Positions 40,860 through 47,638 of a stretch of DNA of 58,678 nt are shown here, in pieces. The stretch is from Actinomycetes bacterium. GTDB lineage: Bacteria > Actinomycetota > CALGFH01. A model generated the notes under the pieces. It worked only from the letters and a program-made list of their open reading frames with translations, had not been told where the DNA came from and made no database searches. The stretch's first letter is position 1. Every line of letters starts with the position of its first letter. The position numbers were made by a program, and so were the translations under genes. The DNA is taken from the NCBI GenBank assembly GCA_030146615.1, contig JASLBL010000245.1:1-58678 (forward strand). The letters run 5' to 3'.

Positions 40860-43800
40860 CTACCCGTCGCGGGCCGTCCTCTGCCGCCAGGCGACCACGG
40901 CGCCGGCCCCGGCGGCCAGGAGCAGCAGCGCCAGCGCCCCGCCGACCAGCCGCAGGAGCGGGGCCGGGTCGAGCCGGATCTCGGCCGGCCCGGCGGGCAG
41001 TCCGGGCACCGGCTCCGGCCGCATGGCCTGCCTCGGGACCAGGCCGAGGCGCACGGCCAGCTGGCCGAGGGCGGCCGGTCGGACGGGGCCGCCGTCGGCC
41101 GGCAGCTCCAGCACCGCCCGCTCGAACGGCTGGCGCATGGCCCCGTCCGGCATGATCTGGGGCAGGCCGAGCGGGCGCCCGAACCGGTCGCGGGCCCGCG
41201 CGAAGTCCTCGGCCGTCGCCGTCGCCGGGTCGGTGCCCAGGTAGGCGCGGGCGATCAGCTCCTCACGGAGCAGGGCCCGGGTCTGCCGGTTGGTGACCGG
41301 CGGGGCGGTCGACGGCAGCGGGATGTCGGCGTCGGCCACCGCCTCGACGTCCAGCTTGGCGAGCAGGGGCGGCAGCTCGATCGGCCGCACGGCCGGCGGG
41401 CCGCCGGCGGTCGGGACCGCCCCCAGGACCATGGTGTCGAACGCCTGGAGGGCCGGGCCGTCGCTGGTCCAGACCGACCCCAGCGGGCGGCCGAGGACGG
41501 CCTTGCCGCCGACCGACCGGTAGGCGCTGTGGAACGTGCCGGCCTGGCTGTCCACCACCCGGTAGCCGCCGCAGGCCGAGCCGGTGGTGTTGGAGAACAC
41601 CCCGTCGGGCAGCGGCAGGAGGTCGGCCACGGGGTCGAGCGGGGCGGCGTCGACGCGCCACAGCTCCACCCCGGACAGGCTGCGGGACGGGTGCGCGGCC
41701 AGCCTGGTCCCGTGCTGGCGGACCCAGGCGGCCAGCGACGGGGTCAGGGGGCCCTGGGCGGTCCCGCCGGTCAGCACGAAGTAGCGGACGCCGGCGGCGT
41801 GGGCGGCCGGCCCGCTGGAGAACTCGGTCACGGTGACGCCGGCGGCCAGCAGCCGGGCCCGGTCGTCGGGGCCGCTGGCGTTGACCGCCGAGCACTCCGG
41901 AACCTCGGCGCCGACCGTCGCCACCAGGCGCCCGAGGCCGTCGTCGGCCTGCCCTCCGTACCGGCCGGCCCAGTTGACCGCCTGGGCGGCGAGCAGCCCC
42001 ACGAGCACGACCCCGGCCCCGGCGAGGGCAGCCCGCCGGGCCTGCTGGGTGGCGCCGGCCGCGACCAGCGTCACCGCCGCCACGGCCACGGAAACGGCCG
42101 CGGCGGGCACGGCGAACGGGAGGGCCTGCTCGGCCGGGTACCCGAGGGCGATCGCGGCCAGCGCCCCGGCCGCCGAGGTCGCCGACCAGGCGAGCAGCCG
42201 GGCCGCCCCTGGGCCGGCATCCGACCTGGCGCCGGACCGGTGGCGCCAGGTCAGGATGGCGGCGGCCAGGCCGGCGGCGACCAGCAGCCAGGTCAGGGGA
42301 GCGCCGGCCAGCGACGCGGCCACCGACCCGCGCCCCTGGGGCCGGCCGAGCAGCCACCCGGCCTGCCCGGCCCCCAGGTCCTGGCCCGCCACCCAGACCG
42401 GCAGGAGCAGCCAGAGGCCGATGGCCAGCCCGAGCGCGGCCATGTCCTTCCAGGCCTCCTGGTAGCGCCCATGGAGCAGCTCGGCGACCACGGGCACGGC
42501 CAGCACCGGCAGGGCCAGCGGGCTCACCAGCAGGGCGAGCCCACCCCCGGCGGCCACCAGCGGCAGCCAGCGCAGAACCGGCCGCGCCGGCACCCCCCAG
42601 GCCAGAGCGACCGTGCCCACCGCGAGGAGCACGGCCAGCACGGTCCCGGTCGCCGCCCGTCCGCTCTGCACCACCAGCGGGTCCAGCGCCACCAGCGCCC
42701 CTGCCAGCGCCGCTCCTCCCAGCCGCCACAGCCGGCCCGGCCGTCCTCCTTGCGGCGGGGCCGGACCCGGCCCGGCCGCCGCACCGGAACCGGGCCCGAC
42801 CCGCATAAGCAGCAGGAAGAGCGCCACCGTCAGACCAACCACACCCGCCAGCAGGAACCGGCTCGGCACCCTCGCCTCCCGGACCACCGCCTCCAGCGAC
42901 CCCCCAGCCTCGGTCGCCCGCAGCCAGATCCCAGCCCCCAGCGCATACACCGGCTCGATCGGCCCAACCCTGGGGTCCTGCACCACCAGCCCGCCCCCAC
43001 TCCCCCCGGCAGCCCTCACCACCGCCACCTCACCCGCCCGGGTGTCAGCCCCGCCAGCTCCAACCCACCCGGCGGCCCCCACGGCCAGCACCGCCATGAG
43101 CAAAGCAACCACGGCGGGTCGAGCCACCCGCCCACCGGCATCCGCAGTCGGCGTCGCACCCGCCGCCGCGTCCGCCGCAACCTTCGCCCGCCGCGCTTCG
43201 TCCCGTGCCGTCCTCCGGGCCGCCCGCTCCCGAGCCGCCTCCGCCCGGGCTAGTTCCCGAGCCTCGGCCTTCGCCGCCTTGTCCTGCCGGGACTGCTCCC
43301 GCTTCACCCGGTTCTCGACAGCCTTCGCCTGAGCGGCGGCGGCCCGCTCCGCCGTACGCGCCTCGGCTTGAGCCGCCTTCACCCGCTCGGCCTCCATCTG
43401 CGCCGACTTGCGGGCCTCGGCCCTCGCCTGCGCGGCAGCGGCCCGGGCCGCCCGCCGCTCCTCCGCCTTTGCCGCTCGCACCTGCCCGGCCTCCGCACGG
43501 GCGATCCGCCGTGCCTCGGCCTCGATGGCCTTCGCCTTGGCTGCCTCCGCCTGCTCCGCCTTCCGAGCCTCGGCCTCCGCGGCCCGTGCCTGCTCGGCCT
43601 CACGACGGGCGGCCGCCTTCGCCTCCTCCTGCGCCGCCTTGGCCTGGGCGGCGGCGGCGCGGGCCGTCCGCCGCTCCTCCGCTCGGGCCGCCTTCGCCTG
43701 GCTGGCCTCCGCGCGCGCGGCCGCCTGGGCCTCGGCCTTGGCCGCCTTCGCCTGCTGGGCCTGCTGGCGGCGAACCTCGGCCTCTGCCGCCCGCTTCGCC

Positions 43801-45785
43801 TTCTCCTCTGCCCGCGCCGCCTGGCGAGCCTCGGCCTGCGCCGACCTCGCCTGCGCGGCGGCGGCCCGGTCCGTACGGCGCTCCTCGGCGCGGGCTGCCC
43901 TGGCCCGCCGGGACTCGGCACGCGCCGCCTTTCGGGCCTCGGCACGGGCCGTGCGCCGCTGGCGGGCCTCGGCGCGAGCCGCTTCCCGGACCTCGGCCCT
44001 TGCCGCCGTCGCCTGGAGCGCCTGCTCGCGCCGGACCTTGGACCCGGCCGCCCGCTTCTCCCGTGCCTGGGCCCGAGCGGCCCGCCGCTCCTCCGCCCGT
44101 GCCGATCGGGCCTGTCGCGATGCGTCCTTCCGGGCGGCCCTGGCCCGGACCGCCTCCTCGTGGGCCGCTCGACGCTCCGCGGCCCGCGCGATCTTCGCCT
44201 GACGGGATTCCTCGCGCGCGACCCGCCGCGCCTCCGCCTGCTCGGCCTTGCGCGCCTCCGCCGCGGCTGCCTCCACCCGGCGTGCCTCGTCACGAACCGC
44301 GCGACGCGCCTCCGCCTCAGCCGCCTCCGCCTGACGTGCCTCCGCGCGGGCGGCCCGTCGCGCCTCAGCCTCAGCCGCCCGGGCCTGGCGCTCCTGGTCA
44401 CGGGCGGCCCGACGGGCCTCGGTCTCAGCCGCCTGGACCCGGCGGGACTCAGCTCGGGCGGTGCGGCGCTCCTCAGCTCTGGCGGCCCTGGCCTGGCGGG
44501 ACTCGGCGCGGGCGGCCTGTCGTTCCTGTTTCCGGGCCGCCTTGGCCTGGCGGGCCTCCTCGGCGCGGGCCTGACGTTCCTCGCGGGCGATCCGGCGGGC
44601 CTCGGCCTGGGCAGCCTGGGCTTGGAGCTGCTCCTCGCGGGCGGCGGTTCGCGCGTCGGCGCGGGCCATGCGCTGGCGGCCGGCTTCCGCGCGGGCCGCC
44701 TTCCGGCTCTCAGCGCGAGCCGTCTTCTTCTGGCGGGCCAGCTCGCGGCGGGCTTCGGCCTCGGCGGCCCTGACCTGCCGGGCCGCCTGGCTCTCCGCTT
44801 CCGCGCGACGCTTCGCGGACGCCGGACTCTTCCTGCCGGCGGGCTGGCGAGCCCCCGGACCGGTCTTCCACCCGCGGAGCCGCTCGAACGTGGCCTCGTC
44901 CATCCCGGGCGCGACCTGACCCGGGCCGATCACCGGGTCCAGCTCCTGACCGCTCAGGCCGATGAGCCGTCCCGACTCGGAGACCGGCAGGCCCGGGCCC
45001 TCCACCTCGACCGCCGCGGCCGCCCCGTCCGCCTCCTCCACCGACCCGGCCGGCGGCTGGTCAGTGGCGGCCACCTCCGGGTCTGGCCGGACCTCCGGTC
45101 CAGGGGGCGGGTCCGGCTGCAACTCCGGCCCGGGGGGCGGGTCCTGATCCGGCTCGAGCTCCGGCTCGGGACTGGTCTCCACGTCGGGCTCGAGCTCCGG
45201 CGGGGTGGACTCGCCGGCCTCCTCCAGCGCCGCCTCCTGCTCCGGTGCCACCTCGTCGGTGACCCGGGTCTCGGTGGCACCGGTAACCGCCGACCAGAGC
45301 TCGCCGATCTGGAGGGGGCGGTAGAGGACGGTCCGGGGCGGGCTGGGCGGGAGGGCTTGGACGTGCTCCCCTTCCTGGAGGAGGACGACGGTGCGGCCCA
45401 GGAAGCGGCCGTCGAGGACGGCGAAGGTCCGCTCGTGGAGGGTTGGGGGCATGTCGACGATGACCACGTCGGCGTGACGGATGACGGTGTCGAGCTCCTC
45501 GCTGTACCAGTCGAGCATGCGGACCCCGCCGGGGGTCTCGATCAGGGAGCGGAGGGCGCTGGCGAGCATCTTGTCGCGGGAGACCAGGATCACCCGGAGG
45601 GCGGGGCCCTCGGGACCGGGGGCGGGCTGGCCGGCCCGTGGGCCGGAGCTCGGCAGCGAGGTGCGCTCGGGACCGTTGGAGCGGACCGGCTTGCCGGGCC
45701 CCGGCTCGGGGCGGGGTGGGGACTGCTGGGAGGTCGAGGTGGCGCGGCCACCGGCGCGCCCGGACCCACCGGGACGGTCGCTCAC
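40860..45785 (-). CDS. 1,641-aa multidomain membrane protein: pseudo-receiver, acidic Pro linker, Ala/Arg/Glu repeat helix, polytopic GT-C-like core, LGFP-like ectodomain, C-terminal anchor
   Basis: Single uninterrupted frame. GTG 45785 overlaps the sortase stop (GTGA). Recognisable protein-like segments at both ends are in the same frame as the low-complexity middle. See findings. Confidence 0.75.
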   Translation of the reverse strand: MSDRPGGSGRAGGRATSTSQQSPPRPEPGPGKPVRSNGPERTSLPSSGPRAGQPAPGPEGPALRVILVSRDKMLASALRSLIETPGGVRMLDWYSEELDTVIRHADVVIVDMPPTLHERTFAVLDGRFLGRTVVLLQEGEHVQALPPSPPRTVLYRPLQIGELWSAVTGATETRVTDEVAPEQEAALEEAGESTPPELEPDVETSPEPELEPDQDPPPGPELQPDPPPGPEVRPDPEVAATDQPPAGSVEEADGAAAAVEVEGPGLPVSESGRLIGLSGQELDPVIGPGQVAPGMDEATFERLRGWKTGPGARQPAGRKSPASAKRRAEAESQAARQVRAAEAEARRELARQKKTARAESRKAARAEAGRQRMARADARTAAREEQLQAQAAQAEARRIAREERQARAEEARQAKAARKQERQAARAESRQARAARAEERRTARAESRRVQAAETEARRAARDQERQARAAEAEARRAARAEARQAEAAEAEARRAVRDEARRVEAAAAEARKAEQAEARRVAREESRQAKIARAAERRAAHEEAVRARAARKDASRQARSARAEERRAARAQAREKRAAGSKVRREQALQATAARAEVREAARAEARQRRTARAEARKAARAESRRARAARAEERRTDRAAAAQARSAQAEARQAARAEEKAKRAAEAEVRRQQAQQAKAAKAEAQAAARAEASQAKAARAEERRTARAAAAQAKAAQEEAKAAARREAEQARAAEAEARKAEQAEAAKAKAIEAEARRIARAEAGQVRAAKAEERRAARAAAAQARAEARKSAQMEAERVKAAQAEARTAERAAAAQAKAVENRVKREQSRQDKAAKAEARELARAEAARERAARRTARDEARRAKVAADAAAGATPTADAGGRVARPAVVALLMAVLAVGAAGWVGAGGADTRAGEVAVVRAAGGSGGGLVVQDPRVGPIEPVYALGAGIWLRATEAGGSLEAVVREARVPSRFLLAGVVGLTVALFLLLMRVGPGSGAAAGPGPAPPQGGRPGRLWRLGGAALAGALVALDPLVVQSGRAATGTVLAVLLAVGTVALAWGVPARPVLRWLPLVAAGGGLALLVSPLALPVLAVPVVAELLHGRYQEAWKDMAALGLAIGLWLLLPVWVAGQDLGAGQAGWLLGRPQGRGSVAASLAGAPLTWLLVAAGLAAAILTWRHRSGARSDAGPGAARLLAWSATSAAGALAAIALGYPAEQALPFAVPAAAVSVAVAAVTLVAAGATQQARRAALAGAGVVLVGLLAAQAVNWAGRYGGQADDGLGRLVATVGAEVPECSAVNASGPDDRARLLAAGVTVTEFSSGPAAHAAGVRYFVLTGGTAQGPLTPSLAAWVRQHGTRLAAHPSRSLSGVELWRVDAAPLDPVADLLPLPDGVFSNTTGSACGGYRVVDSQAGTFHSAYRSVGGKAVLGRPLGSVWTSDGPALQAFDTMVLGAVPTAGGPPAVRPIELPPLLAKLDVEAVADADIPLPSTAPPVTNRQTRALLREELIARAYLGTDPATATAEDFARARDRFGRPLGLPQIMPDGAMRQPFERAVLELPADGGPVRPAALGQLAVRLGLVPRQAMRPEPVPGLPAGPAEIRLDPAPLLRLVGGALALLLLAAGAGAVVAWRQRTARDG
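43170..44819 (-). repeat. coding low-complexity region (aa ~323-872 of the giant protein) with units of about 70 aa (about 210 bp)
   Basis: Composition is almost only A, R, E, K, Q. AEERR recurs at aa 437, 564, 633, 702 and 774. The last three are each followed by (T/A)(D/A)RAAAAQA(R/K). Several other frames on both strands are also stop-free here. Confidence 0.85.
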
Positions 45786-46474
45786 CGGGCCACCCCCTCG
45801 CCGTCGGGGACTCTGGTCGCCGAGACGACCAGGTTGTCGCGGTAGCTGCGGCTAGCCCGGTCGAAGGTGCCGGCGCAGGTGATCAGGCGCAGCACCGGGG
45901 CGGTTGTTGCGCCGTAGACAGCCTCGGACGGCAGCGACTGCTTGGGGTAGCTGGCCAGCGCGTCGACCTTGAACCTGACCACCCGGCGGTCGGCCCGGAC
46001 CACCTGGATCTGGTCGCCGGGGCGCAGCTCGCGCAGCCGGTAGAACACGGCCGGTCCGGTCCGGGAGTCGACATGGCCGGCGATCACCGCCGGGCCCAGC
46101 TGGCCGGGCTGGGGAGCGCCGGTGAACCAGCCGGCGGCCTGGAAGTCGCCGGGGACCTCCATGCTCCGGTCGGGGTCGAGCCCGAGCCGGACCAGGGGCG
46201 AGGACACGCCGATGGCGGGGATCTCGACCCGCACCGGGGGCGAGGGCGGCAGGCGCCGCCAGGACCCGACCGGGAAGTCGATGACCTCGGTGGAGCGGGT
46301 CGGGCTGGCCGCCGGCTGGGTGCTGGCGGCCCCGGCGACCGCGGAACGGCTGGCCGGGGGCGCGGCGTGCGACACCCGCTCCCCCGCTGGCCGGGCGCCG
46401 GCGCAGCCGGCCGCGCCAGTGACCACCAGACTCAGCACGACCACCCCCCGGCGGATCCTGTCTTCCCTGGTCAT
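45782..46474 (-). CDS. sortase family protein (class F-like), lipoprotein-type signal
   Basis: LSLVVTGAAGCAG lipobox. Catalytic His in VIAGHVD, Cys in LRLITCAG, Arg in RDNLVVSA. Confidence 0.8.
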   Translation of the reverse strand: MTREDRIRRGVVVLSLVVTGAAGCAGARPAGERVSHAAPPASRSAVAGAASTQPAASPTRSTEVIDFPVGSWRRLPPSPPVRVEIPAIGVSSPLVRLGLDPDRSMEVPGDFQAAGWFTGAPQPGQLGPAVIAGHVDSRTGPAVFYRLRELRPGDQIQVVRADRRVVRFKVDALASYPKQSLPSEAVYGATTAPVLRLITCAGTFDRASRSYRDNLVVSATRVPDGEGVAR

Positions 46475-46490
46475 GACATCCCGGCGGTCC

Positions 46491-47336
46491 CTAGCCGCTC
46501 GACCGCCGCTGCTGGACGACGAACCCGGTGGTGGCGGCCAGGCCGAGGCCGATCAGCAGGAGCAGCGCGAACCTGCGCCCGCCGCGGCTGGGGCTGGGAG
46601 CGGTCCCGCCCGCCCCGGTGGCCACCCCGCCGGCGGCGGACACCGCGGCGGCCGCGTCGCTGATGTCGAGCAGCTGGAGCTTCTCGCCGATGCCGCCCAC
46701 CGCGACCAGCGACGAGATGGAGCCGCTGGCCAGCTTGACGTTGTCGGACTTGGCCAGGACCTCGCCGGTGCCGGTCTTGCGGACCTCGACGTCGACCGAG
46801 CCCGCCTCGACCTCCTGGTAGTCGCTGGCCGACGGGAACTTGGCGTTGGCGATGAGCACGTCGCCGCCCGTGACCAGGTCCACCGCGCTCTCGCCGGGGA
46901 TGGCCTGGATCAGCCTGACCTTGCTCTTGCTGCCGGCGGGTCGGGACATGTCGTCGGTCAGCAGCGCCGCCTCGACGGAGGTGAGCTGCCCGAACACCGC
47001 GACCGTGTAGGCCTTGCCGGCCGCCAACTCGACGGTGGCCGCGATCACCGGGGGCGAGTTCGCCGGCTCGCCGGCCTCGCGCACCTCGACCTTGAACTTC
47101 CCCGGCTTGACCTTGAGGTAGTCCGAGACGGTCTTGAACGGCACGCCCTTGAGCTGGAGCCGGCCGTTGACGTAGACGACGTAGACGTCGCCCTTGAGCA
47201 ACCCTGGGGCGAAGTGGGCCACCCGGACCAGCGATTCCTCCCCAGCTTGGGCACCGGCGGCGGCCGTCCCGGGCATGGCCAGCATGGCCGCTGTCATTGC
47301 GGCCAGGACCACGGCGGCCAGTCGTCGGCGTTGCAT
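46491..47336 (-). CDS. DUF4397 domain protein, secreted, with C-terminal hydrophobic anchor
   Basis: ATG 47336 is preceded by GAGGAGGGG. Signal peptide AAVVLAAMTAAMLAMPGTAAAGA. Two DUF4397-like repeats (LVRVAHFAPG..DVYV.V.G.. and VRLIQAIPG..VDLV). Tail: GGRRFALLLLIGLGLAATTGFVVQQRRSSG. Confidence 0.75.
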   Translation of the reverse strand: MQRRRLAAVVLAAMTAAMLAMPGTAAAGAQAGEESLVRVAHFAPGLLKGDVYVVYVNGRLQLKGVPFKTVSDYLKVKPGKFKVEVREAGEPANSPPVIAATVELAAGKAYTVAVFGQLTSVEAALLTDDMSRPAGSKSKVRLIQAIPGESAVDLVTGGDVLIANAKFPSASDYQEVEAGSVDVEVRKTGTGEVLAKSDNVKLASGSISSLVAVGGIGEKLQLLDISDAAAAVSAAGGVATGAGGTAPSPSRGGRRFALLLLIGLGLAATTGFVVQQRRSSG

Positions 47337-47344
47337 TGCCCCTC

Positions 47345-47385
47345 CTCGTTCGTCGTTCGTCCGGGGGGACGCGAACGACGACGAG
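47345..47385 (-). promoter_or_regulatory. long leader hairpin abutting the DUF4397 Shine-Dalgarno sequence
   Basis: mRNA sense CUCG-UCGUCGUUCG-CG-UCC-CCCC-GGA-CGAACGACGA-A-CGAG, immediately followed by GAGGGGCA-AUG. An upstream CGGGGGGCG (plus strand 47391-47400) can alternatively pair with the C-run. Confidence 0.45.
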
Positions 47386-47638
47386 TTGGTACGCCCCCCG
47401 CGATCCCGACCACGCATGCCGTCACGAGCCGTTTCGATGGTCATTATCTGCGCTGACCGTTCCTGCGAGCGCCCCCAATTCTGCGTAGTTCGCATCAGAC
47501 GAGCAGGTGAACGCGGTAGTATCTGGCCGCCGAATAGCGCCGGACATTGACGAATCCGGGGTCAACGAGTTACTTGAGGCTTTTGCGAACCTCATCGTCG
47601 GACGGACCACCGGGCTCCGGGACGGCTAGGCTGACGCC

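What the first reader, a model, noticed from the sequence alone, without database searches (positions are those of the whole stretch)
43170..44819. Ala/Arg/Glu/Lys repeat region (about 550 aa) with about 70-aa periodicity, stop-free in several frames on both strands
The segment reads like ...AEAEARRAARAEARQAEAAEAEARRAVRDEARRVEAAAAEARKAEQAEARR.... AEERR recurs at aa 437, 564, 633, 702 and 774 (spacings 127, 69, 69, 72). The last three copies share AEERR(T/A)(D/A)RAAAAQA(R/K), so at least three tandem units of about 210 bp exist.
The composition is that of highly stable, charge-zippered alpha-helices (ER/K single alpha-helix or TolA domain II-like). At 1.5 A rise per residue, a fully helical 550-aa stretch would span roughly 80 nm. 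There is no N-terminal signal sequence, so it should be cytoplasmic, lying between the pseudo-receiver and TM1.
At the DNA level the codon set (GCN, CGN, GAR and their complements) cannot make stops. This explains the stack of overlapping track ORFs here. Such repeats are also prone to length variation and assembly collapse.
Basis: seen in the sequence. Interest (0 to 1): 0.6.

Follow-up and report, generated by a model that had tools for sequence, protein, structure and literature searches.

The report
Hypervariable Arg-striped helical spacer in glycosyltransferase
The segment encodes a roughly 550-residue, proline-free Ala/Arg/Glu stretch, predicted to be one very long cytoplasmic alpha-helix with a straight stripe of positive charge, that links a receiver-like domain to a membrane glycosyltransferase and changes length greatly between close relatives.

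Summary
Window 43158-44813 (minus strand) encodes aa 325-876 of one 1641-aa ORF (40860-45785). Composition is A 38%, R 22%, E 15%, Q 8%, K 5%, with 0 Pro and 4 Gly. The basic repeat is 18 aa (54 bp), consensus RAARAEARRAARAEARQA.

R/K recur every 3.63 residues, coherently over all 552 aa, which is the pitch of an undistorted alpha-helix. E/D sit on the opposite face. Opposite-charge i/i+3,4 pairs are not enriched and net charge is +61. So this is not a canonical ER/K helix, a heptad coiled coil or TolA.

AlphaFold2 predicts helix for 334-693 and 701-873, about 80 nm if extended. The host protein is a receiver-like domain, an acidic Pro-rich linker, this helix, a GT-C-fold glycosyltransferase and an ectodomain. 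It sits in a conserved DUF4397–sortase F operon of uncultured soil Actinomycetes.

The distance between conserved anchors ranges from 64 to 686 aa in 54 homologs, even between near-identical strains. More distant receiver-bearing relatives carry Pro-rich spacers instead.

Best reading: a length-hypervariable, polycationic helical tether. Its function is inferred, not shown.

The parts
43158..44813 (-). Ala/Arg/Glu/Gln/Lys repeat region, aa 325-876. It consists of degenerate 18-aa (54-bp) units with consensus RAARAEARRAARAEARQA. Net charge +61, no Pro.
43167..44786 (-). AF2-predicted alpha-helix, aa 334-693 and 701-873. That is 540 positions, about 81 nm at 0.15 nm per residue if fully extended. 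R/K form a stripe with period 3.63 and E/D lie opposite.
43260..44108 (-). Zone of the higher-order ~69-aa (207-bp) repeat, aa 560-842. Units start at about aa 562, 631, 700 and 772.
44868..44981 (-). Conserved motif just upstream of the repeat, aa 269-306: SGRLIGLSGQELDPVIGPGQVAPGMD..ERLRGW. It served as the N-terminal anchor for measuring spacer length.
44982..45275 (-). Acidic Pro/Glu/Asp-rich linker, aa 171-268. Net charge is about -30 over aa 171-300. AF2 pLDDT is below 50, so it is probably disordered.
45276..45596 (-). Receiver-like (CheY/flavodoxin-like) domain, aa 64-170. D71, D106, D111 and R156-P157 are invariant.
41976..43124 (-). Polytopic GT-C-fold membrane domain, aa 888-1270. 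TM1 is 891-909. E919 is invariant and D914 nearly invariant (at least 90%) in the first outer loop.
40890..41975 (-). Extracytoplasmic alpha/beta domain, aa 1271-1600, with a weak likeness to the C-terminal domain of C. glutamicum mycoloyltransferase A. A C-terminal TM anchor follows at about aa 1605-1632.
45782..46474 (-). Class F sortase gene. Its stop overlaps the start of the giant gene by 4 bp (45782-45785).
46491..47495 (-). DUF4397 protein gene, first gene of the conserved DUF4397–sortase F–giant gene block.

Best explanation
The segment encodes a cytoplasmic, Pro-free Ala/Arg/Glu alpha-helical spacer of about 540-550 residues. It grew by amplification of an 18-residue (54-bp) unit that equals five helical turns. 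Because the charge pattern repeats every 3.63 residues, Arg/Lys line up as one nearly straight basic ridge along the rod. Glu, most Val/Ile/Leu/Met and much of the Ala lie on the opposite face.

The rod joins a receiver-like domain and an acidic disordered linker to TM1 of a GT-C-fold glycosyltransferase encoded in a DUF4397–sortase F operon. Its length changes rapidly by indels between repeat units, while composition, helical phase and reading frame are kept.

Most likely it works as a long, semi-rigid, polycationic tether. It would hold the receiver-like domain tens of nanometres from the enzyme. Through its basic ridge it may also adhere electrostatically to an anionic partner such as the inner membrane leaflet, nucleic acid or polyphosphate.

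Shown: the repeat anatomy, the periodicity, the breaker depletion, the predicted helix, the topology, the host-protein fold and the length hypervariability. Inferred: that the helix is monomeric, the tether function, and any polyanion binding.
For: Repeat anatomy:
- The 18-aa period has z 11.9.
- The 54-bp arrays are seen by TRF and the repeat finder.
- The unit consensus is RAARAEARRAARAEARQA, with 12 of 19 spacings equal to 18.

Helical phase:
- R/K power peaks at 3.63 residues, at 57 times the variance. E/D lie 180 degrees away.
- Phase is coherent over 15 blocks of 36 aa at 3.63 (Rayleigh R 0.88, p about 1e-5). It is not coherent at 3.5, 3.6 or 3.667.

Helix formation:
- The region has 0 Pro and 4 Gly in 552 aa. 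In 48 homologs (15,464 aa) Pro is 0.29% and Gly 1.6%. The rest of the protein has 10.4% and 12.5%.
- The mean Pace-Scholtz helix penalty is 0.22, against 0.71 kcal/mol for the rest.
- AF2 predicts helix for 334-693 and 701-873.

Selection on the encoded sequence:
- The ARE frame is kept although other frames are nearly open.
- This is the only such region in the 6.44-Mb genome.

Spacer behaviour:
- Anchor-to-anchor distance is 64-686 aa in 54 homologs.
- Near-identical C-termini carry 290, 396 and 609 aa spacers. One pair (351 vs 308 aa) differs by a clean 43-aa indel between AEEARKAKAA repeats.
- The ARE region is 51-70% identical with many indels, against 78-91% for the C-terminal part.
- Distant receiver-bearing relatives have 172-485-aa spacers with 23% Pro. 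Core-only relatives of about 750-800 aa lack the whole extension.

Precedent: a basic stripe on a single alpha-helix that binds DNA is described for the CAF-1 KER domain (PMC10335832).

Topology and host protein. Conserved operon.
Against: - There is no experimental or read-level evidence.
- AF2 can give confident helices to conditionally folded disordered regions (abstract of 10.1101/2022.02.18.481080). pLDDT falls below 50 at 509-525 and 689-703, so the rod may be kinked or folded back.
- The 3.63 period shared by homologs may partly reflect a common ancestral 69-aa unit (18+18+18+15, which gives 69/19 = 3.63) rather than independent selection.
- Extreme length variation, down to about 20-40 aa in some orthologs, suggests that length, and perhaps the rod itself, is dispensable.
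- Some length differences among metagenome homologs are artefacts. P0011 and P0013 contain frameshifted stretches, and P0012 has a duplicated module.
- No partner for the basic ridge has been identified.
Confidence: 0.55

Rival explanations
1. It is a self-associating, non-supercoiled helical stalk. Helices from two or more copies of the enzyme, or folded-back segments of one chain, pack along the straight Ala/Glu/Val-Ile-Leu-Met seam, or basic face against acidic face. The result would be a dimerisation or oligomerisation rod with Arg on the outside.
For: - The face opposite the Arg ridge holds about 55% Ala, most of the 24 V/I/L/M residues and the Glu.
- A period of 3.63, or 18/5, is one that straight helical bundles can use (PMC4786415).
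- AF2 confidence dips at 509-525 and 689-703 and cuts the helix into three near-equal thirds. This could mean a folded-back bundle.
- Several GT-C enzymes among the structural matches were solved as dimers or complexes, for example EmbB2 and the Pmt4 homodimer (titles).
Against: - A net charge of +61, about +0.1 per residue in all homologs, disfavours homotypic packing without a counter-ion.
- Only 4% of residues are V/I/L/M.
- Ala or hydrophobic residues show no signal at 3.5, and Ala only a weak one at 3.63 (7 times the variance, against 57 for R/K).
- Indels of many sizes between close strains would break the register of an antiparallel fold-back.
- No multimer prediction could be run.
Confidence: 0.2
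2. It is a tolerated low-complexity expansion with no function of its own. Replication slippage and unequal recombination in a 72-80% GC gene inflate a short juxtamembrane basic segment. Selection only removes variants that are harmful, such as those that aggregate or are protease-sensitive.
For: - Spacer length ranges from 64 to 686 aa with no preferred value.
- Orthologs with 75-78% identical C-termini have only about 20-40 aa of ARE sequence.
- The exact sequence is poorly conserved.
- Other clades fill the same position with Pro-rich or R/A/G-rich low-complexity sequence.
- Core-only homologs exist.
Against: - The ARE frame is retained although frameshifts would rarely meet a stop.
- Pro and Gly are almost absent despite many one-step mutational routes to them in GC-rich codons.
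- Helical phase is coherent over 552 aa across irregular unit lengths.
- All receiver-bearing clades keep a long spacer.
These points indicate purifying selection on physical character, though not on length.
Confidence: 0.17
3. It is a canonical ER/K single alpha-helix or a TolA domain II homologue. In that case the helix is stabilised by intrahelical i to i+4 Glu-Arg/Lys salt bridges.
For: - The region is rich in A, R, E and K and is predicted helical.
- JGI names three homologs 'colicin import membrane protein'.
Against: - i/i+3,4 opposite-charge pairs number 97, against 100 +/- 8 in shuffles.
- Charged residues are 44% and Ala 38%. Net charge is +61.
- The charge signal has no period near 7 (z -0.9).
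- Acidic and basic residues lie on opposite faces.
- There is no Pfam or PDB sequence match.
- The region is cytoplasmic and N-terminal to a GT-C enzyme, not periplasmic behind an N-terminal anchor.
Confidence: 0.05
4. It is an assembly artefact: a collapsed, expanded or chimeric repeat in a metagenome-assembled genome.
For: - The genome is a draft of 724 contigs.
- Homologs from other assemblies show frameshifted stretches and a duplicated module in this region.
- Two related MAG contigs begin inside the gene, about 85 aa downstream of the repeat.
Against: - The longest exact repeat in 43100-44900 is 18 bp, and units are only 60-78% identical. Short-read k-mers therefore resolve the region.
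- One uninterrupted frame joins two conserved domains.
- Spacers of similar length (609-686 aa) occur in independent assemblies.
Confidence: 0.03

Closest known systems
ER/K single alpha-helix (SAH) domains (myosin VI/VIIa/X, INCENP, drebrin)
   Same: Both are long, Pro-free, highly charged predicted monomeric helices that link two functional modules as semi-rigid spacers (abstracts of PMC5378345, PMC4183817 and PMC5347031).
   Different: This region is 38% Ala and only 44% charged. It shows no i/i+4 E-to-R/K enrichment and carries a net charge of +61. Acidic and basic residues lie on opposite faces. It is about 540 residues long; the CAF-1 KER paper calls its 90-aa helix the longest SAH described to date.
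CAF-1 KER domain ('SAH-DBD', PMC10335832)
   Same: [quoted passage not shown] In CAF-1 this stripe binds DNA without sequence specificity and the helix acts as a spacer.
   Different: KER is eukaryotic, nuclear, 90 aa long and K/E/R-rich with classic alternating charges. This region is bacterial, about six times longer, Ala/Arg-based, repeat-built, hypervariable in length and fused to a membrane enzyme. No binding data exist for it.
TolA domain II (E. coli colicin import protein)
   Same: Both are Ala- and charge-rich, tandemly repetitive, predicted extended helices next to a membrane anchor (my own knowledge of TolA). Some homologs are auto-annotated as 'colicin import membrane protein'.
   Different: TolA domain II is periplasmic, follows an N-terminal anchor, is Lys/Glu/Asp-rich and leads to domain III. 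This region is cytoplasmic, Arg-rich, precedes TM1 of a GT-C enzyme and has no TolA family hit.
Ala-based helical peptides and linkers ((AEAAKA)n, (EAAAK)n)
   Same: Both have an Ala backbone with interspersed Glu and Lys/Arg, which gives high intrinsic helicity. (AEAAKA)k is used as a model alanine-rich helix (PMC8204395 abstract).
   Different: Those are short synthetic peptides with i/i+4 pairing and near-neutral charge. This is a natural 552-aa polycation with separate charge faces.
Non-heptad coiled coils with 18/5 or 11/3 periodicity
   Same: Both use an 18-residue unit of five turns, which gives a seam that runs almost parallel to the helix axis (PMC4786415).
   Different: Here the best-defined seam is made of Arg/Lys, not hydrophobic residues. 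The opposite seam is only weakly apolar.
GT-C glycosyltransferases of Actinobacteria (EmbB, AftA, AftD, Pmt) – the host protein
   Same: The AF2 model of aa 880-1641 matches STT3, AftA, ALG9, EmbB, PglB and DPY19. Acidic residues are conserved in the first outer loop.
   Different: No Pfam or NCBIfam family is reached. The matched GT-C chains are 479-1250 residues long. To my knowledge none of them carries a receiver-like domain on a tether of several hundred residues, but I did not check this here.

Membership tests
ER/K single alpha-helix (SAH) | Composition dominated by E, K and R, with few other residues | tested here: not met
   E+D+R+K is 44% and Ala is 38%.
ER/K single alpha-helix (SAH) | Enrichment of oppositely charged i/i+3 and i/i+4 pairs (salt-bridge network) | tested here: not met
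   97 pairs against 100 +/- 8 in 1000 shuffles, z -0.4. R/K and E/D phases lie 180 degrees apart.
ER/K single alpha-helix (SAH) | Alternating charge blocks (period about 6-9) and near-neutral net charge | tested here: not met
   The charge signal at period 7 has z -0.9. Net charge is +61.
ER/K single alpha-helix (SAH) | Stable monomeric helix in solution | not testable with these tools
   Only the AF2 secondary structure and helix propensity are available.
Heptad coiled coil | Hydrophobic periodicity of 3.5 residues | tested here: not met
   Power at 3.5 has z -0.7 for Ala and z -0.9 for VILMFWY. Block phases are incoherent at 3.5 (computed for R/K).
TolA (colicin import protein) | An N-terminal TM anchor followed by a periplasmic helical domain II and the C-terminal domain III | tested here: not met
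   No hydrophobic segment occurs before aa 891. No TolA family hit is found. The downstream part has a GT-C fold.
Tandem repeat protein | Significant internal periodicity at protein and DNA level | tested here: met
   The 18-aa lag has z 11.9 and the 69-aa lag z 9.3 in aa 560-876. TRF reports 54- and 108-bp arrays. The repeat finder finds families of 13-19 copies.
GT-C glycosyltransferase (host protein) | Polytopic GT-C fold | tested here: met
   The AF2 model has pLDDT 81.8 and pTM 0.78. Foldseek matches STT3 at E 4e-6, and also AftA, ALG9, EmbB and PglB.
GT-C glycosyltransferase (host protein) | Conserved acidic catalytic residue(s) in the first extracytoplasmic loop | tested here: inconclusive
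   E919 is invariant and D914 nearly invariant just after TM1. A catalytic role was not tested.
GT-C glycosyltransferase (host protein) | Match to a curated GT-C sequence family | tested here: not met
   No Pfam or NCBIfam hit for the window protein. Homologs P0058 and P0073 give only sub-threshold PMT_2 hits (E 0.003-0.006).
CheY-like receiver (N-terminal domain) | (beta-alpha)5 fold with an Asp at the end of beta3, an acidic pair after beta1, T/S after beta4 and K after beta5 | tested here: inconclusive
   AF2 gives five strands alternating with helices in aa 64-170. Foldseek hits to receivers and pseudo-receivers are weak, at E 0.01-0.1 and TM 0.5-0.7. D111 is conserved, but only one acid follows beta1 and R156-P157 replaces K-P. 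No sequence-family hit.

The most novel reading that the evidence does not exclude
The rod is a functional single alpha-helix of about 80 nm, straight and polycationic, and so a bacterial counterpart of the CAF-1 'SAH-DBD' about six times longer. Its continuous Arg ridge would bind a cytoplasmic polyanion: the nucleoid, RNA, polyphosphate or the anionic inner leaflet. This would position or gate an envelope glycosyltransferase and its receiver-like domain. Repeat-mediated indels would act as a fast evolutionary dial for its reach.
Probability: 0.12. Interest if true: 0.75.

Novelty: new variant of a known kind. Interest (0 to 1): 0.45.

Why it matters
If the prediction holds, this would be one of the longest continuous helical spacers predicted for a bacterial enzyme. 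Its design also differs from ER/K helices: an Ala backbone, an 18-residue unit of five turns, and a basic ridge kept straight at 3.63 residues per turn.

It provides a natural length series, about 20 to 640 residues in otherwise near-identical proteins. That series could be used to test how tether length and a charged stripe affect a membrane enzyme.

It is also a caution for annotation. Such regions attract labels like 'TolA/colicin import', create stacks of spurious overlapping ORFs, and let frameshift errors pass without a stop codon.

The host protein has not, to my knowledge, been characterised. It combines a receiver-like domain and a GT-C enzyme in a sortase F/DUF4397 operon flanked by PdtaS and PdtaR, and is known only from uncultured soil Actinomycetes.

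Tried and rejected
Read depth, repeat-number heterogeneity and transcription could therefore not be checked, and read laying was not used.
- Sequence searches of the whole-protein profile and of the ARE region against PDB chains gave only poly-Q noise or nothing.
- Pfam on the ARE region at E up to 10 gave nothing.
- Pfam and NCBIfam on the whole protein gave nothing.
- Foldseek of the N-terminal model returned only weak receiver-like hits and none to the long helix.
- Literature searches for DUF4397 with sortase and for 18-residue Ala-rich repeats found nothing specific.
- A first HMMER-based unit finder failed for technical reasons. A PSSM tiling replaced it.
- I considered that the acidic linker co-evolves with the basic rod. 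Spearman rho is 0.59 for lengths. The test is not corrected for phylogeny and mostly reflects a difference between clades, so I do not rely on it.
- I considered that the Pro-rich spacers of distant relatives are frame-shifted versions of ARE-type DNA. The compositions of the alternative frames do not match those spacers, so I did not pursue it.
- Earlier notes of this scan showed no look-alike stretch in another genome.
Full report
**1. What is in the sequence**

The finding lies inside one ORF on the minus strand, 40860-45785 (GTG start, 1641 aa).
- I use aa 325-876 (window 43158-44813).
- Composition there is A 38.4%, R 22.1%, E 15.0%, Q 8.0%, K 5.4%. There are 0 Pro and 4 Gly in 552 residues, and net charge is +61.
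- AEERR occurs at aa 437, 564, 633, 702 and 774, as reported.
- The last three copies share AEERR(T/A)(D/A)RAAAAQA(R/K).

**2. Periodicity**

- Autocorrelation against 500 shuffles gives the strongest lag at 18 aa (42% identity, z 11.9), then 36 aa (z 9.2).
- The 69-aa lag is strong only in aa 560-876 (z 9.3).
- TRF reports 54- and 108-bp arrays and no 207-bp array.
- The repeat finder gives families of 13-19 copies, mostly 54 bp apart and 60-76% identical to their reference.
- A PSSM tiling finds 20 units with consensus RAARAEARRAARAEARQA. Twelve of 19 spacings are 18, and the others are 15, 33, 36, 47, 55 and 61.
- The four ~69-aa super-units are 48-64% identical in protein and 69-78% in DNA.

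The repeat is old and degenerate. The longest exact DNA repeat in 43100-44900 is 18 bp, so collapse in a short-read assembly is unlikely here.

**3. Other reading frames**

In 43170-44819 the real frame has 0 stops. The other five frames have 1, 1, 3, 5 and 10 stops.
- This explains the stack of long overlapping ORFs.
- 'Stop-free' is an overstatement.
- The alternative frames would encode P/G/R/L/S-rich sequence.

**4. Evidence for a helix, and what kind**

Periodicity of charge:
- The Fourier power of the R/K positions has one sharp peak at 3.63 residues. It is 57 times the variance, and the best of 200 shuffles reaches about 11 times.
- E/D peak at the same period, 180 degrees out of phase.
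- On a 3.63 wheel, R/K fill the sector within about +/-100 degrees. The opposite sector holds about 55% Ala, about 24% Glu and most V/I/L/M.
- The phase is coherent across 15 consecutive 36-aa blocks at 3.63 (Rayleigh R 0.88, p about 1e-5). It is not coherent at 3.5, 3.6 or 3.667.
[quoted passage not shown] On a helix the basic residues would therefore form a nearly straight ridge along the whole rod.

Helix breakers:
- They are almost absent. In 48 homologs and 15,464 ARE residues, Pro is 0.29% and Gly 1.6%.
- Most of those Pro lie in stretches that look frameshifted.
- The rest of this protein has 10.4% Pro and 12.5% Gly.

AlphaFold2 prediction (aa 1-960, 41-sequence alignment):
- It gives helix for 334-693 and 701-873, with pLDDT mostly 70-89.
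- Confidence dips below 50 at 509-525 and 689-703.
- At 0.15 nm per residue, 540 positions span about 81 nm if extended. This length is an inference.
- AF2 can assign confident helices to conditionally folded disordered regions (abstract of 10.1101/2022.02.18.481080).

**5. Not an ER/K helix, a heptad coiled coil or TolA**

- Opposite-charge i/i+3,4 pairs number 97, against 100 +/- 8 in shuffles.
- The charge signal has no period near 7.
- Only 44% of residues are charged, and the net charge is strongly positive.
- Ala and hydrophobic residues show no 3.5 periodicity.
- The ARE region has no Pfam or PDB sequence match.
- JGI's name 'colicin import membrane protein' for three homologs reflects composition only.

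**6. The host protein and its topology**

- There is no hydrophobic stretch in aa 1-880 (maximum Kyte-Doolittle 19-residue mean 0.83). TM1 is 891-909. Nine further hydrophobic peaks follow up to aa 1270, and a last TM segment lies at about 1605-1632.
- AF2 of aa 880-1641 (pLDDT 81.8, pTM 0.78) matches GT-C glycosyltransferases. These are STT3 (E 4e-6), AftA, ALG9, EmbB, PglB and DPY19.
- The ectodomain weakly resembles the C-terminal domain of C. glutamicum mycoloyltransferase A (E 1e-2).
- E919 is invariant and D914 nearly invariant (at least 90% of rows) in the loop after TM1.
- Homologs give sub-threshold PMT_2 hits.
- The N-terminal aa 64-170 fold as a five-stranded beta/alpha domain (pLDDT 77-91). 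Foldseek matches to receivers and pseudo-receivers are weak.
- aa 173-268 are acidic, Pro-rich and of low confidence.
- A conserved motif, GLSGQELDPVIGPGQVAPGMD..ERLRGW, precedes the repeat.

**7. Genomic context**

- The sortase F stop overlaps the start of the gene by 4 bp. DUF4397 lies upstream and gltB downstream.
- The order PdtaS / DUF4397 – sortase F – this gene – gltB is conserved in homolog contigs. In one of them PdtaR follows gltB.

**8. Relatives and length variation**

- A search with the C-terminal 752 aa found 73 proteins. All those with a source name come from uncultured Actinomycetes or Actinomycetota.
- The nine species-representative genomes that hold the gene are all MAGs; the isolate names of most (SMAG) suggest soil.
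- A profile search of 1.84 billion representatives found 659 relatives at E up to 0.001, and 345 at E up to 1e-10.
- The distance between the GQVAPG motif and the D..AGEVA loop motif is 64-686 aa in 54 homologs, spread almost continuously. The window protein has 619 aa.
- On a tree of the C-terminal part, near-identical proteins carry spacers of 290, 396 and 609 aa (P0017, P0011, P0013).
- Sister proteins carry 96 and 644 aa (P0021, P0023).
- P0026 and P0044 differ by a clean 43-aa indel between two AEEARKAKAA repeats.
- Some differences are artefacts. P0011 and P0013 contain frameshifted stretches that pass without a stop, and P0012 has a duplicated module.
- Whatever the length, homologs keep the 18-aa lag, the 3.58-3.65 R/K period, the opposite E/D face and about +0.1 charge per residue. 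Shared ancestry of the repeat may explain part of this.
- The ARE region is 51-70% identical with many indels. The C-terminal part is 78-91% identical.
- In the window's own genome (6.44 Mb) no other region is comparable.

**9. The wider family**

- Core-only proteins of about 750-800 aa lack the N-terminal extension.
- Others carry a Wzx-like flippase instead. Pfam shows this for P0074 (PF01943), and the similar N-termini of P0073 and P0082-P0084 suggest the same.
- More distant receiver-bearing members (P0080, P0117, P0086, P0072) have 172-485-aa spacers with 23% Pro.
- An outgroup clade has R/A/G-rich spacers of about 64-230 aa.

All receiver-bearing clades thus keep a long low-complexity segment at this position, with different chemistry. 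This points to a spacer or tether role rather than a specific fold.

**10. Interpretation**

- Best reading (0.55): a length-hypervariable, semi-rigid, polycationic helical tether. The CAF-1 KER helix shows that a basic stripe on a single helix can bind DNA and act as a spacer (PMC10335832). Binding of this ridge to membrane, nucleic acid or polyphosphate is inference only.
- Rivals: a straight self-associating bundle (0.2), a tolerated expansion with no function of its own (0.17), a canonical ER/K or TolA-like helix (0.05), and an assembly artefact (0.03).

**11. Verdict**

This is a new variant of a known kind, charged single-helix spacers, in an uncharacterised enzyme family. Interest is moderate.

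Noticed in passing
window 45276-45596 (-), aa 64-170: The receiver-like domain keeps an Asp at the end of beta3 (D111), plus D71, D106 and R156-P157 where CheY has K-P. It lacks the second acid after beta1 and a T/S after beta4. It could be an atypical receiver or a pseudo-receiver. The soluble kinase PdtaS is encoded divergently next to the operon.
   Followed up: partly
window 44868-44981 (-), aa 269-306: The motif SGRLIGLSGQELDPVIGPGQVAPGMD..ERLRGW is strongly conserved (several invariant residues) between the acidic linker and the repeat. It matches no family. AF2 gives it only moderate to low confidence (10-residue block means about 44-61), apart from a short helix at 297-304.
   Followed up: partly
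homologs P0011, P0013, P0012 (ENA assemblies); locus L001 for P0013: Inside the repeat these proteins switch for tens of residues into P/G/R-rich sequence and back, or repeat the whole upstream module. In this kind of DNA a frameshift or misjoin meets no stop codon, so it goes unnoticed in gene calls.
   Followed up: partly
relatives P0073, P0074, P0082-P0085, P0095, P0109: The same GT-C plus ectodomain core is fused at its N-terminus to a Wzx-like Polysacc_synt flippase instead of the receiver-like domain and spacer. Pfam shows this for P0074; the others are inferred from similar N-termini (P0073, P0082-P0084, P0095, P0109) or from length alone (P0085). This suggests the core acts on a lipid-linked glycan. 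P0095 and P0109 also have an extra cytoplasmic domain after the last TM segment.
   Followed up: partly
window 45782-47495 (-) and loci L001, L002: DUF4397 – class F sortase – giant gene is a conserved, tightly packed block, with a 4-bp overlap between the sortase stop and the giant gene's start. The DUF4397 protein has a weak match to the GVDTG C-terminal sorting domain (NF058571, E 0.002), so it may be the sortase substrate.
   Followed up: partly
47 homologs: The length of the acidic Pro-rich linker correlates with the length of the basic repeat (Spearman rho 0.59). The net charges are anti-correlated (rho -0.41). The test is not corrected for phylogeny. It might mean that the acidic linker partly neutralises the basic rod.
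   Followed up: partly
loci L003, L004 (MAG contigs): Two related contigs begin inside the gene, about 85 aa downstream of the repeat. This may mean that short-read assemblies tend to break near this GC-rich region.
   Followed up: no
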